A stretch of DNA of 64,000 nucleotides from Haliotis rubra (lineage: Eukaryota). The position numbers are program-made. The stretch spans positions 1,798,001 to 1,862,000 of the forward strand of contig NW_025766980.1 of the NCBI RefSeq assembly GCF_003918875.1, read 5' to 3'. Position 1 is the first letter of the stretch, and each line of letters begins with the position of its first letter. Positions 14,583 through 26,500 of this stretch are shown here, one piece after another.

Positions 14583-17500
14583 AAACGTTATTTTGCTTCA
14601 TTTTAGTGTAAATGAATCCACCCCGATTTTATAAGCTGAAACTCGTTTTCTCGTGTTCCTGTGTTGTGATCTTTCGACGAATTTAAAACATATTTACACG
14701 AACCGACCGTTTACATAGACAACATTTCGGATTTAATCGCATTAATAGTACTATTATCAAAGACGTGGGAGTTACGTCCCTTACATGAGCCGGGATGACG
14801 TGATTGTTTGAATCTGATAATGCCCCTGATAGTCACCCTTAACCCGTCAACTGGTAAACACCTCAGGGGCACAATGACCTTTTCATTCAACATTAAAGTA
14901 GCATGGCGTGATATGCTTAAATAATGATTTAAGCAGTTTAAAAACAATGATGAAACATTCGCTGAATAGTCAGTGAAATTAAAACACCTGTATGGGTCGC
15001 CGGGTTGACTGAGAGTATGCCTCTTCCAATAATTCCAACAAAAACTCCCACTGTCTAGTGTTTCTCACGGGTTTTCTCATAATGTCGATGTTGAAAGAAT
15101 GCCAGCACATCCGAGGAGAGTATAAACAAACTGGTAAAGACGATCAATGTGACTCCAGTTGCACCAATGCTTGTGGAGGACTTCCGCTCATCTGGAGCAC
15201 TGATGTACTTTATGACGGTCTTCGTCAAGTTTCTTCTGTCAAGAAGCAGGTTGCCTCGAATCTCCTTCTTCTTTGCGTCGACTGACTGAGACGAGAGGTC
15301 ATTGAGTCGGTTCTCTGGGATACAGAAGCACCTGCAGACCTGGTAGACAACTTGTCCAGGGTTTGAATTGGAGATGTATGTTGTGATGGAGTGAGTGGAT
15401 GTTTGTCTGAAACCGGAAGTGACGCTTGTGTACGTTTGAGTATGATCTGGATTCTGTAAACTGACGCTATCAGAGTTGCTGAAGTCTGTGGTACTTGAAA
15501 CAACGGTGGCGTCGACATTTGTCAAAGGTGACGCAGATATGACAGATCCTGATCTTGCGTTGGGTGAGTTGATAACATGTGGGTATGTTGACGAAATTTT
15601 GTCGTACCCACTTGTTTGTATCGATGGCTCTTGTGATTGTACACTCATGTCGATACTCGACCATATGGCGGTTGAGGGATGCGGTGACACAGTGTCATCA
15701 TATGATGACCAAACAGACATCGAGCTCCACTCTGATGACGATGAACTTTCCGTCTTAGTGATCTGTACAATGTCATCCGTTGAAGATGATGCAAGAGGTA
15801 TAACAGTGTTGGTGTTCAATGATGACCCGATGACTTCAGATGACCCTACGGATGTCATCATGTCATACCCAGATGATGATACTGCCGTTTCGGTGGCAAC
15901 GCTACTGGTATTGAAGGGAAGAGACGCCGAAAAGGACTGAGAAGGGGCCGATATTTCTGAAAGAACAGTGGACAACTGTAAAGAAGCACGGACAACGCTC
16001 AGGCGTTTATTAATACATCACATCAGCATAGTGCGCGAGACAGTAGTATGTTACTGATGTATGTAAATGACATTGGTAAAAAGCAATAAACCTAGGCCTA
16101 AATGAATGCATCACATTTATCCTTCCAAACAAGTCGAAATGTAACCATAACTGAATGTAAACCTCCACCAGATATTGGGGCGGTGGGGTAGCCTAATGGT
16201 TAAAGCGTTGGCTCGTCACGCCGAAGACCCGGGTTCGAATCCCCACATGGGCACAATGTGTGAAGCCCATTTCTGGTGTCCCCCGCCGTGATGTTGCTGG
16301 AATATTGCTAAAAGCGGCGTAAAACCAAACTCAGTCAGTCAGTCCACCAGATATTCTCGCACACAGTGTCTCTAATTAACTGTTTATTATCAATCGATTA
16401 ATATATAATAACTAGAATGACATGGTAAATATAAGCGACAGTCCTCTATAAGGATAAAAAAAATTATATATGTCTTTAAACTGATCAAAACTAAAGACGA
16501 CATATTACTGACATTTCTGTTCGGGAAAGACATTTTCAAGGTTCAGAGTATGAAAAGTAGATATTCTTCGCACTAGAAGTGAAAACAATACCTATTATCC
16601 TTATGACACTAACAGATCTACAATTGTAAATCAACTACATGTAGTCAGCTTGGGTCCCTATGCTCATACATCTAACTCCGGGGGAGTTTACTTCTGAGAG
16701 TGACCAGGGTGTCGTTGTACAAAGCGATATTAGCACTAAGATGACCGTAACTTCCATACCCAAGTGTAAATGAGTTTCTTAAAAACATATTAAGTAATTG
16801 GAAACAGACAGAGCGAGTTAAATCTTTGTTAGTGTTTCAGAAGAGTCACAAAGGTTACCTCCACATGTTCCATCATCCGGACCAGTGACTTCCGTCCCTG
16901 ACCCTGCACCTGTCAGTGGTCTCTCACATACAAACGGCATGACTTCATCACAGAGCACAGTACCCCAATAACCGTCCACTGTGGCCATGGCACAGTGTTC
17001 GCCACTGGTCTGAGATTGGTTGCCATTGACTTCCCAGTTGGTGTAGATCATTGGGGAACAGTCCGCCCACACCCAGCGGCCATTGTTGAAGCTGTGCCAG
17101 GACCCTCCTATGTAGTGCTTAGGCGCTGGAAAAAATATTATTTTACAGCTGTGCATTTTGACACACTGCTGCTATGTATCACGGCGGGTTTCTTGTCGTA
17201 ATACTTGACCGTATCAGATATTGATACAAGGCGGTTGTTTGGTACATAAGGAGTATTTCTTATTTGGTATGAAAACCGTTTGTAATTAGAGTTGCCTATT
17301 TTATGTATTGTACTGTTGTTATTGCCACTGATGATAGAACCACTTATTGTCACCGGTTCCTGAACCATGCCAACTGTCGAGTTTTCATGTATACAATAAT
17401 CTATCCTGTATGTATCTGAACATAGTCAACGAATTCAATCAGTGATAAGAACTTCCCAAAGTCTGATGAAAAGACAAGTCTGTGGATTCTTTCTAACGGT

Positions 17501-23500: not shown

Positions 23501-26500
23501 AGCCATCATTGTCTCCACGGGTCACGTACAAAGTTATGTCATCGTTGCTTTTGACTCTGACTCCAGTATCTTGTGCTGCTGTTGAAATATCCGAGTGTTG
23601 TAGGTTTATGACCAGATTGAGCGTGTGGTCGATTGTATATTGGTTTGTACCACCTGGTCCGGCCATTTCAACTTTCACGACAGTGTCTTCCGGGCCTCGC
23701 ATGTGAAGTGTAATGGGACCGCTGAATGTTGACAGGGGAGGTGAGGGAAAGGCCAGCATGAACTTCCGGCCACGTTCGGTCATATATTCTGTGAAAAGAG
23801 GGAAACATTCATAATAAGTATTATATTATTCATGGGCACGGAAATAAAGGGAATAACTTCATTGGGTTATTTATGTGTCATAACAAACACAACAGTACAG
23901 GAAGCTCCTTAGAATTACCTGCAACACCTATCTTTGAATATACATTTATATTCCCCGGGACAGATCATCTGTATTTTCTCATATCATCTTCTTCAGTGAT
24001 CAGTTGACCAAGCAGTGCATAGGCTTTGTGTGAAATTTGACTGTTATGTTAATGCTTTAAACGTTTCTGAATATGAACAAAGCCACACTCAACTTGGGGT
24101 TTCCACTACCCCTGGCAACTTGCTTTTAACAACCCTCTTGTATGTGTCCCTTGTTTGAGTCTTGGAGGGGACCAAGTTGAAACGTTTTTTGGCTATGGCA
24201 CATGGTATTGTCAGGCTTGCACAGCCATAAACAGACTTGGTGGATATAGTTATATGTTGTATTCAATGTGTAACACACGCTGTCCTGTATATCGCAGCAA
24301 GAGTTTATGTTGAATTCTAAGATGCCTAGCGTTTAGAACAATCGGAAAAAAAATACATTATCAGACAATAAAGGTATAGTTTTTTGATGACGTAACAATT
24401 GAATGACGTTTTCCCGTCACTGCGCCATTCTAGTGTGCCCCCCTCGTAATCGAACCATTTTACATTACGTCACAATGTAAGCTACGTCACGATGCATGTC
24501 AGTTGTCATCGCCTCGTACGGCCTCGTACGGCCTCCTACAGTAAACTACACCGTTGCATCCAGTTTCTTGGTTTGCTGTTGCTTCACGCAGCTAACATCA
24601 CTGGTGGAAACATTACGTTTATGTTTCACGACGGTTAAAATGTGTCATTTCGACTCACAAGTTTTCAGCGACACGGTAACGTTCGTAATGTTTACATTCC
24701 CACAATGCAATTGTGGAATGTCGCCTGACTACTCAACTTCCTCTGGATGTATTGATCTAAACTTACGCTGGTAGTAGAAATGCAACGTTCATATTGCCCC
24801 ATATGGTTTACGTTAATGACAGATGCAATTAAAATAATTCAGAGAAGATATTTAATCCGAAATTAAACCGTCATCAAACTGTTATCATTTGTTTTTTTCT
24901 GGTAACGTTCGTCTTAACGTAGGGGGCAGAAAAATCAATAGAACAGCGCGCCAGTTAGCCCTGTGCGAGGATTCTTAATTTAGGTCACCGACACCGTCGT
25001 TTGTTTTCTGCCTAAATTAATCGTAATTATCTTTAGAAAGTATTAAATTTGGCATCTTAGAAAAGAAATACACTTCGCCCTACCACCATGTATAGTGTAA
25101 TAAAACACACTTTCGCCCTGAACTATTATAACGTTAAAGCACTCGGACGCAAGCGTCCTCCTGCTTTAACTATACATGGTGGTAGAGCGAAGTGTATATG
25201 CCAATTTATGATTGAATTATTGTCTTTGATAGCGGCGAGTCGACATCGCTTTGTCGCCTTCAGTTCTTTCGATGAGAAAGCGATAACAGCAGACGAGAAA
25301 GCGATAGCGCAAGACTGAAGCGCGATAAAGGGAGAAAGCGAAAGAGAGAAGAGAGAGAAAGCCATATAAAATGTTGTTGATTTCCAGTTATCAGTTCCTC
25401 CCTTTTTATACAGAGCAAATTTAAACATTTTTAGTAGATATATTTATAAATTGAGATAGAATCATGTATCGTCAAAACACACACATGTGTTTGCTTCGTC
25501 TTTTGTAGTATATGAACATTCGCATAAAGTTTTATCTTTAAGTTTTGAGACTTTAATTTCCTTTTTCGGGGACTAACAAGTTATGTTCCTTAAATTTAAT
25601 GCATATACGATCCTTGAATCATAAACATAAAGCAAACAAGGTAGTTTACATACAGATCATACACTGACAAATAGCTGTATGTATTATCTGCCACTGTTCG
25701 TAATGTTTACATCTATGGTCATCTTTCAGACCAGGGCCTCCTTTCACAAAGCACTAAGGTGATCGTAAGTCACTTAGGTAACCTTAGTGCAATGTTAAAG
25801 AATGGGAGTTAAGGTTAACCTTAGTTATGGTTGCTTCGTGAAAGGAGCTCCTGGACTTGAAGCAGAATACGTGCTCGTCCGATTTAGGAATGACATGTTC
25901 ATAATGATTATGATGGATATGTCATGCAGACAGATGTTACACATATAAATTGTTGTGTTTCCGTATAAATACAGTTAGAAAATGTCTTCACCTTCAAGTC
26001 ACATATAAGACTATTCCATACAATAGGAATGGAAGACCTAATGTTATTAAAACTGATTTCTTAAAACTCCTTTCGATCGAACCGTCTTCGGAAATTAAAT
26101 TCAGTTCTAATGCGTTCCAAAATATTTGTCCGACGTTAAGTCGGCTTTCCCACCAGATGAAGCCGAATATAAGTTGGACCCAGTCTGATTATGATATAGT
26201 CACTTGATTCAGACAGACAGAGTCAAACAGACAAGACATACATCAGTCACACATGCATACAAGCACAGACATAGATACGCATACAGACAGGCAGACAGGC
26301 AGACAAGCAGGCAGGCAGGCAGGCAGGCAGACAGACAGGCAGACAAGCAGACAGGCAGGCAGGCAGGCAGGCAGACAGGCAGGCAGGCAGGCAGACAAAA
26401 AGAATACTTCCGGACAACACCGTTAAGACATTTTCGGTCTTGCGTTATCGTGTTGGTAGAAAATGCCACGTGGTCGTTGCTGGAATAATGGCAACACACC

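What the first reader, a model, noticed from the sequence alone, without database searches (positions are those of the whole stretch)
15055..23788. Lectin receptor locus with two possible N-termini: CTL-CTL-mucin-TM with or without an IgGFc-binding domain
Seen: a signal exon (21908-21984, phase 2) and an 80-bp exon (21393-21472, phase 2 to 1) give a complete 653-aa CTL-CTL-mucin-TM protein. About 630 bp upstream, the IgGFc-binding exon ends in a strong phase-1 donor (G|gtgagt) that fits the CTL acceptor at 20840. With the 34998-35037 signal exon this gives ~1006 aa. Unspliced, it stops after LGECT, giving a secreted single domain. Inference: alternative promoters or splicing could produce short membrane, long membrane and secreted forms, or this is a gene fusion or fission in progress.
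Basis: partly seen in the sequence, partly recalled or inferred. Interest (0 to 1): 0.65.

Follow-up and report, generated by a model that had tools for sequence, protein, structure and literature searches.

The report
Abalone lectin receptor gene, one frameshift
This is one ordinary abalone gene for a cell-surface lectin-like protein; its normal long form is interrupted in this assembly by a single missing base, and the proposed second, shorter start is no better than chance.

Summary
The window is blacklip abalone (Haliotis rubra) DNA, not human. The locus is NCBI gene LOC124283149. Its 832-aa model (P0001) maps to the window with no mismatch.

These are the CTLD-CTLD-stalk-TM exons (1802 nt), the phase-1 junction 22614->20840, the signal exon 34998-35037, and the open 77-nt + 80-nt path giving 653 aa.

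One thing was missed. The "IgGFc-binding exon" is not one open frame. Frame A stops at 23441-23439, and the domain continues in another frame. One base is missing in the run A4-G-T4 at 23471-23463. The long form is 3017 nt as assembled, not 3018.

The long architecture is the family norm. It runs signal, FCGBP_N, two CTLDs, Ser/Thr stalk, juxtamembrane module, TM. All 5 of 5 homologues carrying this stalk, from four Haliotis species, have both domains, and none is about 650 aa. The signal exon matches the paralogues' "ACSA|EYM" junction.

The short start has no homologue support, and such paths arise by chance in roughly 1 in 7 to 1 in 2 introns of this size.

Most likely this is one gene with one N-terminus. 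The frameshift is either an assembly error, which I favour, or a recent null allele. Interest is low.

The parts
34998..35037 (-). First coding exon (signal peptide MLMMVLIVSACSA plus 1 base, phase 1, donor CTG|gtaagt)
   Evidence: Sequence. Its best hits among the 158 held proteins are the signal-peptide ends of P0004 and P0003 (residues 13-20) and P0005 (52-59), directly before EYMD. It is the only candidate between 23789 and 37000 with a perfect donor, phase 1 and an N-terminal hydrophobic run.
23789..34997 (-). Intron 1 (11.2 kb), swollen by transposons: an intact 344-aa Tc1/mariner-type ORF at 31311-32345 (+), a decayed copy at 27584-28120 (-), and (CAGG)n at 26284-26394
   Evidence: DDE_3 at 8.9e-13 and 3e-08. 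Tandem repeat. No further family exon was found here by tblastn with P0001-P0003.
22614..23788 (-). Large FCGBP_N (IgGFc_binding) exon, 1175 nt, entered in phase 1 and left in phase 1, but read in two frames
   Evidence: Frame A (23786-23442) aligns to the first ~107 residues of P0002 at 64% identity. Frame B (23484-22615) aligns to the rest at 65%. Pfam PF17517 4.5e-30 in frame B.
23463..23471 (-). Site of the frameshift: run A4-G-T4, one base short of an open frame
   Evidence: Frame A reads ...RMSKSF then TSCPTLR*. Frame B reads QKF then YVVSYPP. Homologues read RWSTSFYLVSYPP and NWTKEFYIVSYPP continuously.
23439..23441 (-). TAA stop that ends the frame coming from the signal exon
23305..23307 (-). 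ATG used as CDS start by NCBI's 832-aa model (first Met of frame B). It gives no signal peptide.
   Evidence: P0001 begins MQKFDVF and maps with 0 mismatches. Kyte-Doolittle hydropathy mean of its first 19 residues is 0.03, against 1.87 to 2.41 for P0003 and P0004.
20841..22613 (-). Intron 2 (1773 nt), with two SINE-like repeat copies at 21573-21777 and 22019-22179
   Evidence: Self-blastn against the window gave 13 further hits to other sites.
21908..21984 (-). Judged a chance open frame.
   Evidence: Open, with a perfect donor. Such ATG-to-donor pairs occur 38 times per 64 kb on each strand. No positional match in relatives.
21393..21472 (-). Judged chance.
   Evidence: Donor matches the consensus at 4 of 6 positions and the polypyrimidine tract is weak. 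69% of 116 control stretches offer at least one such bridge. Codon log-odds sits at the intronic median.
20646..20840 (-). CTLD1, first half (195 nt, phase 1-1)
   Evidence: P0001 residues 232-297 with 0 mismatches. Lectin_C 18.9 bits for the exon alone.
19902..20150 (-). CTLD1, second half (249 nt, phase 1-1)
   Evidence: P0001 residues 298-380. Lectin_C 34.7 bits against a cut-off of 22.6.
18473..18664 (-). CTLD2, first half (192 nt, phase 1-1). Identical in protein to the H. rubra paralogue.
   Evidence: P0001 residues 381-444. 64 of 64 identical to P0003, against 46-55% for the neighbouring exons.
16859..17125 (-). CTLD2, second half (267 nt, phase 1-1)
   Evidence: P0001 residues 445-532. 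Lectin_C 31.8 bits.
15355..15956 (-). Ser/Thr-rich stalk (start of the last coding exon)
   Evidence: P0001 residues 533-745: S 26%, T 12%, P 5%. No Pfam family.
15058..15354 (-). Conserved juxtamembrane module, TM helix (15094-15162) and 12-residue tail. The stop codon is at 15055-15057.
   Evidence: Translations. Hydropathy peak 2.09. The module recurs in 12 of 158 held proteins, all of them FCGBP_N proteins.

Best explanation
The locus is a single gene, NCBI LOC124283149 of Haliotis rubra, on the minus strand from 35037 to 15055.

**Design.** It has seven coding exons, and every junction is in phase 1. The order is:
- a signal peptide (34998-35037)
- an 11.2-kb transposon-laden intron
- one large exon for an FCGBP_N ('IgGFc_binding') domain with its ~115-residue N-terminal extension
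- two C-type lectin-like domains, each split over two exons
- a last exon with a Ser/Thr-rich stalk, a conserved juxtamembrane module, one TM helix and a 12-residue tail

**Inferred product.** This is a type I membrane glycoprotein. It would hold FCGBP_N and two CTLDs away from the cell surface on a mucin-like stalk. The tail has no recognisable signalling motif, so recognition or adhesion is more likely than signalling on its own. This function is inferred, not shown.

**State in this assembly.** The FCGBP_N exon is one base short in an A4-G-T4 run, so the frame from the signal peptide stops after 128 codons (13 from the signal exon, the split codon and 114 in frame A). That is why NCBI's model starts at an internal Met and lacks a signal peptide.
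- About 0.6: the missing base is an error of the Nanopore-based assembly, and the real product is about 1006 aa.
- Otherwise it is a very recent null allele.

**The alternative forms.** The 'short form' through 21908-21984 and 21393-21472 is a chance open path in intron 2. The 'secreted form' is simply intron read-through.
For: **Identity**
- P0001 (832 aa, H. rubra LOC124283149) matches every exon with 0 mismatches.

**Architecture is the family norm**
- 3 of 3 hits to the FCGBP_N exon have PF00059 + PF17517.
- 5 of 5 hits to the stalk exon have both. They come from H. rubra (two), H. rufescens, H. cracherodii and H. asinina, at 832-1109 aa.
- A sixth fused protein, P0012, was found among the representatives.
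- The junction ...SL|D|PP... is conserved in all five.

**Signal exon**
- ACSA|EYM is shared with P0003, P0004 and P0005.
- FCGBP_N is typically N-terminal and secreted (Lang et al. 2016, PMC4948705, passages read).
- In 10 of 10 scanned relatives the Pfam domain starts only after an N-terminal extension, as frame A provides here. That is ~105-125 residues in 8 of 10; P0124 starts at residue 33, and P0070's best stretch starts at 649 because it is one of three repeats.

**Frameshift**
-.
- No usable splice bypass exists.

**Assembly error favoured**
- There is a single lesion in a homopolymer pair.
- All other ~1005 codons are open and all six GT-AG pairs are intact.
- Frames A and B are as conserved against P0002 (64-65%) as the CTLD exons are (56-67%).
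- The assembly was built from Nanopore reads with two Racon rounds and one Pilon round (PMC6774278, passages read).

**Short form is chance**
-.
- NCBI's name for the gene carries no 'isoform' label.
Against: - No transcript data could be examined, so an unannotated minor isoform from an intronic promoter is not excluded.
- sigB does have a perfect donor and a plausible signal-like peptide. Neither sigB nor ex80 lies in a repeat.
- Illumina polishing usually corrects 4- to 5-base homopolymers, so the frameshift may be real.
- NCBI did not flag the model as corrected or low quality.
- The codon-usage test cannot judge signal exons. The true sigA exon also scores as intron-like.
- The function is inferred from domain content only.
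- Neither CTLD keeps a full canonical sugar-binding motif (read by eye).
- The FCGBP_N domain has no known ligand.
Confidence: 0.75

Rival explanations
1. The frameshift is real. In this animal, haplotype or species the gene is a very young pseudogene or null allele. Transcripts from the normal promoter end after 128 codons and would probably be degraded.
For: - The frame break is in the sequence and no splice bypass rescues it.
- NCBI's model starts at the first Met after the break rather than being corrected.
- The family is multi-copy and fast-evolving. Orthologues are only 67-71% identical. Gene loss is common in families of this kind (general knowledge).
Against: - There is only one lesion in about 3 kb of coding sequence. 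All splice sites are intact, and there is no excess divergence upstream of the break.
- The lesion is the typical Nanopore error: one base lost in a homopolymer. The assembly had only one short-read polishing round.
Confidence: 0.3
2. One reading: alternative promoters or splicing give a short membrane form (sigB + ex80 + CTLDs, 653 aa), a long membrane form and a secreted FCGBP_N-only form.
For: - The 653-codon path is open, sigB has a consensus donor, and its peptide looks like a signal sequence.
- Both candidate exons lie in unique sequence.
Against: - No homologue of about 650 aa was found among stalk-bearing proteins (5 of 5 are fused).
- There is no positional match to sigB or ex80 in 158 relatives.
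- Expected chance yield is about 1 signal-like ATG-donor pair per 1.77 kb. Counting only perfect donors it is about 0.2.
- 69% of control stretches supply a bridge exon.
- ex80 has a weak donor (4 of 6) and intron-like codons.
- It would add two unpaired cysteines ahead of CTLD1.
- The juxtamembrane/TM module travels with FCGBP_N, not with CTLD-only proteins: 12 of 12 against 0 of 130.
- The only short model found, P0139 (155 aa), is one exon flanked by translated intron.
Confidence: 0.07
3. Two separate genes: an upstream secreted FCGBP_N gene and a downstream CTLD membrane gene, wrongly merged by gene prediction.
For: The two parts are 1.77 kb apart, and a candidate start lies between them.
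Against: - The same fused order appears in independent annotations of four species and in at least two paralogue groups.
- The phase-1 junction residue is conserved.
- No separate short proteins surfaced among stalk-bearing hits.
Confidence: 0.03

Closest known systems
Haliotis paralogues and orthologues: LOC124283089 (H. rubra, P0003, 1073 aa), LOC125376198 (H. rufescens, P0002, 992 aa), and unnamed proteins of H. cracherodii (P0004) and H. asinina (P0005)
   Same: Same order of signal peptide, FCGBP_N, two CTLDs, Ser/Thr stalk, CRCxCIPENRLNDL...LLLDxRNLTKT module, TM and short tail. Same junction residues.
   Different: Only 48-67% identical overall. The window's copy alone has the frame break. 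P0002 and P0001 lack the signal exon in their models.
Invertebrate FCGBP_N-domain proteins (Lang et al. 2016, Mol Biol Evol, PMC4948705)
   Same: FCGBP_N sits at the N-terminus behind a signal peptide and is combined with varied other domains (passages read). The relatives here pair it with EGF repeats and the same juxtamembrane/TM module.
   Different: A pairing with two CTLDs is not mentioned in the passages I read. The paper's supplementary figure S5, which lists all architectures, could not be opened.
Vertebrate FCGBP (gel-associated mucus protein)
   Same: Shares the N-terminal domain family PF17517.
   Different: No VWD-C8-TIL units were found in any exon. The abalone protein is membrane-anchored rather than secreted. 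The name is misleading: native FCGBP and its N-terminal construct did not bind IgG (Ehrencrona et al. 2021, PMC8267560, passages read).
Multi-CTLD type I receptors of the mannose-receptor family (FcRY, PLA2R, DEC-205, MRC2)
   Same: Best solved-structure matches to the tandem CTLDs, from 2.5e-42 to 1e-18. They share type I topology and a short tail.
   Different: No ricin-type or fibronectin-II domains. Two CTLDs rather than eight to ten. The N-terminal domain is FCGBP_N. A mucin-like stalk is present.
Group XIV CTLD proteins (thrombomodulin, CD93, CD248, CLEC14A); this comparison is recalled, not tested
   Same: An N-terminal globular recognition part on a Ser/Thr-rich stalk, a single TM and a short tail.
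   Different: Those proteins have one CTLD followed by sushi or EGF domains. No EGF is found here.

Membership tests
FCGBP_N / Pfam PF17517 IgGFc_binding | Profile match above the curated cut-off | tested here: met
   105.4 bits against 25.6, E 4.5e-30, profile positions 13-231 of 297 in frame B.
FCGBP_N / Pfam PF17517 IgGFc_binding | Located at the N-terminus behind a signal peptide (Lang et al. 2016) | tested here: inconclusive
   The exon design meets it: sigA plus frame A matches P0003-P0005. As assembled, the frame from the signal peptide stops before the Pfam domain.
FCGBP_N / Pfam PF17517 IgGFc_binding | Binding of IgG Fc (origin of the name) | not testable with these tools
   Abalone have no IgG (general knowledge). 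The human N-terminal construct did not bind IgG (PMC8267560).
Vertebrate FCGBP proper | Repeated VWD-C8-TIL units after FCGBP_N | tested here: not met
   No VWD, C8 or TIL match in any of the 7 exon translations. The precomputed domains of P0001-P0005 list only PF00059 and PF17517.
C-type lectin-like domain (PF00059) | Profile match | tested here: met
   The second-half exons score 34.7 and 31.8 bits against a cut-off of 22.6. The first halves alone score 18.9 and 17.1. PF00059 is precomputed for P0001. PDB CTLD matches appear.
Ca2+-dependent carbohydrate-binding C-type lectin (strict sense) | EPN or QPD triplet together with WND in the long loop (motif recalled from the CTLD literature) | tested here: not met
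   Read by eye. CTLD1 has QPT (QPD in the homologues) and WQN. CTLD2 has NQS and WGT. Sugar binding is therefore uncertain.
Mannose-receptor family | N-terminal ricin-type domain, fibronectin type II domain, 8-10 CTLDs | tested here: not met
   No such Pfam matches, and only two CTLDs.
Membrane-tethered mucin | Pro/Thr/Ser-rich domain plus a SEA or similar cleavage module next to the membrane | tested here: inconclusive
   The stalk is 43% S+T+P but only 5% Pro. There is no SEA match. A conserved juxtamembrane module of unknown function is present.
Type I membrane protein | Cleavable N-terminal signal peptide plus one C-terminal TM helix | tested here: inconclusive
   The TM helix at 15094-15162 is clear. 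The signal exon is present but out of frame with the rest because of the frameshift. No signal-peptide predictor was available.

The most novel reading that the evidence does not exclude
The frameshift is real and has cut the FCGBP_N head off the gene. The gene survives because a signal-like exon born de novo in intron 2 (21908-21984), with the 80-nt bridge (21393-21472), supplies a new secretory start. This would turn an FCGBP_N-CTLD receptor into a 653-aa CTLD-only receptor: domain loss by promoter and exon capture, caught soon after it happened.
Probability: 0.04. Interest if true: 0.6.

Novelty: new member of a known kind. Interest (0 to 1): 0.2.

Why it matters
- **For annotation.** NCBI's 832-aa model lacks its signal peptide and the first ~175 residues because of one missing base and a first exon 11 kb away. 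The H. rufescens model also lacks the signal exon.
- **For biology.** Abalone carry a small, fast-evolving family that mounts FCGBP_N and two lectin-like domains on a membrane-anchored stalk. The same FCGBP_N and juxtamembrane/TM frame carries EGF repeats in other relatives.
- **As a system.** This gives a tractable way to ask what the FCGBP_N domain binds, but it is not a surprise. Varied invertebrate architectures of this domain are already in print.
- **The advertised claim.** Two N-termini, or a fusion or fission in progress, is not supported.

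Tried and rejected
- **Small intron or alternative splice across the frameshift.** Of 129 phase-compatible GT..AG pairs, none has a donor better than 5 of 6 together with a good pyrimidine tract. All would delete conserved residues. Rejected.
- **Codon-usage test of sigB and ex80.** ex80 is intron-like, but the test cannot judge signal exons because the true sigA scores the same.
- **sigB or ex80 as repeat-derived.** Neither lies in a repeat. Only the flanking SINE-like copies do.
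- **Solved structure for FCGBP_N by sequence.**
  - Frame B alone gave one chance hit, E 0.5.
  - The family profile A2 gave 150 matches, and the best 60 shown are all CTLDs.
  - A profile of 11 FCGBP_N proteins gave 77 matches, and the best 60 shown are all EGF.
- **Rfam and tRNA scans of the window.** 0 matches each.
- **Literature.** Searches listed 5, 11, 5 and 4 papers. None describes an FCGBP_N + CTLD membrane family by title or abstract start. I read passages of four of them.
  - The listing of cluster members: accessions and isoform names stayed unchecked.
  - Structure prediction: no fold of FCGBP_N, so whether frame A is an integral part of the domain rests on sequence conservation only.
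  - The protein-atlas search.
- **No abalone genomic DNA from other species was available.** Genome contigs holds only bacteria and archaea.
- **Complex prediction was not used.** No binding claim is made.

Full report
**Origin.** The window is abalone DNA, not human.
- The FCGBP_N frame (22603-23484, minus strand) finds "uncharacterized protein LOC124283149 [Haliotis rubra]" (P0001, 832 aa) at E 4.7e-147.
- Compared exon by exon, every residue of P0001 matches the window with 0 mismatches.
- One N run (41188-41351) was left alone.
The joined step was left out. Where a full-length sequence was needed, I used public database proteins as they stand.

**Check of the observation.**
- On the minus strand the coding exons of NCBI's model are 23307-22614, 20840-20646, 20150-19902, 18664-18473, 17125-16859 and 15956-15058, with the stop codon at 15057-15055. 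All junctions are in phase 1.
- sigB (21908-21984, 77 nt) and ex80 (21393-21472, 80 nt) are open and phase-compatible, so 1959 nt = 653 codons.
- The FCGBP_N exon ends G|gtgagt at 22614 and joins 20840 to give SSL-D-PPECR, as in P0001.
- Read unspliced, it ends SSLGECT*.
- The signal exon 34998-35037 reads MLMMVLIVSACSA plus one base, with donor gtaagt.
- Pfam finds IgGFc_binding (105.4 bits, cut-off 25.6) and Lectin_C in both halves of both CTLDs.

The exon 22614-23788 is not one open frame.
- The frame entered from the signal exon reads YMTERGRKF...GYLAFPETRMSKSFTSCPTLR and stops at TAA 23441-23439.
- The Pfam domain lies in another frame, which reads NQNVQKFYVVSYPPINGGYSYF... from 23484.
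- Homologues read straight through: RWSTSFYLVSYPP in P0002 and NWTKEFYIVSYPP in P0003.
- The break therefore lies in the run A4-G-T4 at 23471-23463, and the exon is 1175 nt where 1176 is needed.
- The long form is 40 + 1175 + 1802 = 3017 nt. The "~1006 aa" protein does not exist as assembled.
- No splice bypass is credible. Of 129 phase-compatible GT..AG pairs, none has good signals and all would delete conserved residues.
- This explains why NCBI's CDS starts at the first Met of the second frame (MQKFDVF, 23307) and has no signal peptide. Hydropathy (Kyte-Doolittle mean) of its first 19 residues is 0.03, against 1.87 and 2.41 in P0003 and P0004.

**The long architecture is the family norm.**
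- Searching with the FCGBP_N frame for longer proteins gave 3 hits among 2499 candidates. All 3 carry PF00059 and PF17517.
- Searching with the stalk/TM exon gave 5 hits among 6763 candidates. All 5 carry both domains and are 832-1109 aa. They come from H. rubra (two genes on the same 3.7-Mb contig), H. rufescens, H. cracherodii and H. asinina. None is near 650 aa.
- A profile of the five found 10 proteins at E <= 1e-5.
  - Five were the same fused proteins.
  - One was a CTLD-only mussel protein.
  - Four carried IgGFc_binding without Lectin_C. One is named as bacterial; three are unnamed ENA or JGI records.
- An exhaustive HMMER search of 1.84 billion representatives gave 9060 hits at E <= 1e-3. 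The best 150 contain one more fused protein, P0012 (957 aa).
- Among the 158 proteins held, 28 have FCGBP_N, 136 have CTLDs and 6 have both.

**The signal exon.**
- In P0003, P0004 and P0005 the signal peptide ends ...ACSA and is followed by EYMD. The window has ...ACSA, a split GAA (E), then YMTERGRKF.
- Among the 158 proteins, the best matches of the 13-residue sigA peptide are exactly those signal-peptide ends.
- It is the only candidate between 23789 and 37000 with a perfect donor, phase 1 and an N-terminal hydrophobic run.
- Intron 1 is 11.2 kb. It holds an intact 344-aa Tc1/mariner-type ORF and a decayed copy.

**The short form.**
- sigB and ex80 lie in unique sequence between two SINE-like copies at 21573-21777 and 22019-22179.
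- By crude criteria, "signal-like first exons" occur 38 times per 64 kb on each strand. The criteria were an ATG, an open frame, 34-130 nt, a hydrophobic 9-mer and a donor matching at least 5 of 6 positions. Perfect donors occur 14 times on the minus strand and 2 times on the plus strand.
- A 1.77-kb intron is therefore expected to hold about 1 such exon, or about 0.2 with a perfect donor.
- A phase 2-to-1 bridging exon is available in 69% of 116 control stretches of 1067 nt.
- ex80's own donor matches only 4 of 6 positions.
- Neither peptide matches any relative at the expected position.
- ex80's codon use sits at the intronic median. This test cannot judge signal exons, because the true sigA scores the same.
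- The only short model found, P0139 (155 aa), is one CTLD exon flanked by translated intron.
- NCBI's name for the gene has no isoform label.
- The juxtamembrane/TM module occurs in 12 of the 158 held proteins. All 12 have FCGBP_N: 6 with CTLDs and 6 without, at least three of which (P0089, P0124, P0136) carry EGF domains. None of the 130 CTLD-only proteins has it. The held set was chosen by score against the whole profile, so this count is biased. It still argues that the N-terminal FCGBP_N and the C-terminal anchor belong together, with the CTLD pair as the variable insert.

**How it most likely works.** This part is inferred.
- The product is a type I membrane glycoprotein.
- FCGBP_N sits at the tip, followed by two CTLDs, a ~210-residue stalk (S 26%, T 12%, P 5%), a conserved module (CRCFCIPENRLNDL...LLLDRRNLTKTVIKYISAPDERKSS), a 23-residue TM helix (15094-15162) and a 12-residue tail, QHRHYEKTREKH.
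- The tail has no recognisable signalling motif. Recognition or adhesion at a mucus-covered surface, perhaps with shedding at the conserved module, is more likely than autonomous signalling.
- Neither CTLD keeps the full canonical Ca2+/sugar motif. CTLD1 has QPT/WQN, with QPD in the homologues. CTLD2 has NQS/WGT. These motifs are recalled and were read by eye.
- The name "IgGFc-binding" says nothing about function. Native FCGBP and its N-terminal construct did not bind IgG (PMC8267560, passages read).

**Is the frameshift real?** I could not decide this.
- For an assembly error:
  - There is one lesion only, in a homopolymer pair.
  - All other codons are open and all splice sites are intact.
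  - Frames A and B are as conserved against P0002 (64% and 65%) as the CTLD exons are.
  - The assembly was built from Nanopore reads with two Racon rounds and one Pilon round (PMC6774278, passages read).
- Against an assembly error:
  - Short-read polishing usually repairs such runs.
  - NCBI did not flag the model.
- My odds are about 0.6 error and 0.3-0.35 real recent null allele.

**Comparison with what is known.**
- Lang et al. 2016 (PMC4948705, passages read) defined FCGBP_N. [quoted passage not shown]
- The abalone family fits that description. It is not a vertebrate-type FCGBP, because it has no VWD-C8-TIL units.
- The CTLD pair is closest in sequence to the mannose-receptor family (FcRY, PLA2R, DEC-205), but it lacks that family's defining N-terminal domains.
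- Four literature searches listed no paper that describes an FCGBP_N + CTLD membrane family. The supplementary figure of Lang et al. that lists all architectures could not be opened.
- I file it as a new member of a known kind.

**Not done.**
- Cluster look-up and the atlas were unavailable.
- No abalone genomic sequence from other species, no reads and no transcripts were within reach.

**Verdict.** This is one gene with one supported N-terminus. The "two N-termini / fusion in progress" reading is not supported. Interest is low.

Noticed in passing
18473-18664 (minus strand): The first-half exon of CTLD2 is 64 of 64 residues identical to the H. rubra paralogue P0003, while the neighbouring exons are 46-55% identical. 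The two NE-Pacific species' paralogues share 58 of 64, more than orthologues do (53-55 of 64). This pattern suggests exon-scale gene conversion between paralogues.
   Followed up: partly
15058-15354 (minus strand): A conserved juxtamembrane module plus TM with no Pfam family recurs in 12 of 158 held relatives. All 12 carry FCGBP_N: 6 with CTLDs and 6 without, some with EGF repeats. This looks like a shared frame with exchangeable middle domains.
   Followed up: partly
31311-32345 (+) and 27584-28120 (-): An intact 344-aa Tc1/mariner-type transposase ORF (DDE_3 8.9e-13, HTH domains) and a decayed copy lie inside intron 1 of the gene.
   Followed up: partly
47452-47763, 52158-52517, 58321-58644 (minus strand): Three exons with Fibrinogen_C matches (9.9e-19, 1.3e-13, 1.3e-05) point to one or more fibrinogen-related genes upstream of the lectin gene.
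   Followed up: no
9481-11827 (minus strand): LINE-like element: a reverse-transcriptase ORF (RVT_1 3.3e-29) with further long ORFs beside it.
   Followed up: no
21573-21777, 22019-22179, and copies near 18713-18984, 30242-30461, 36031-36261, 40172-40228, 41377-41427, 50449-50687: A SINE-like repeat family is scattered over the window at 70-91% identity. ARAGORN found no tRNA and Rfam found no family.
   Followed up: partly
56756-57694; 49653-50234; 63076-63396: A 54-bp satellite (about 17 copies), a 38-bp array (about 15 copies), and a 72-bp repeat that lies inside a 266-aa open frame at 62951-63751 (minus strand) encoding acidic Ser-rich repeats with no Pfam match.
   Followed up: no
P0139 (public protein, 155 aa); P0002 and P0005 N-termini: Public gene models of this family are often faulty. 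P0139 is one CTLD exon flanked by translated intron. P0002 starts inside the large exon without a signal peptide. P0005 has a 39-residue non-homologous N-terminal extension.
   Followed up: partly
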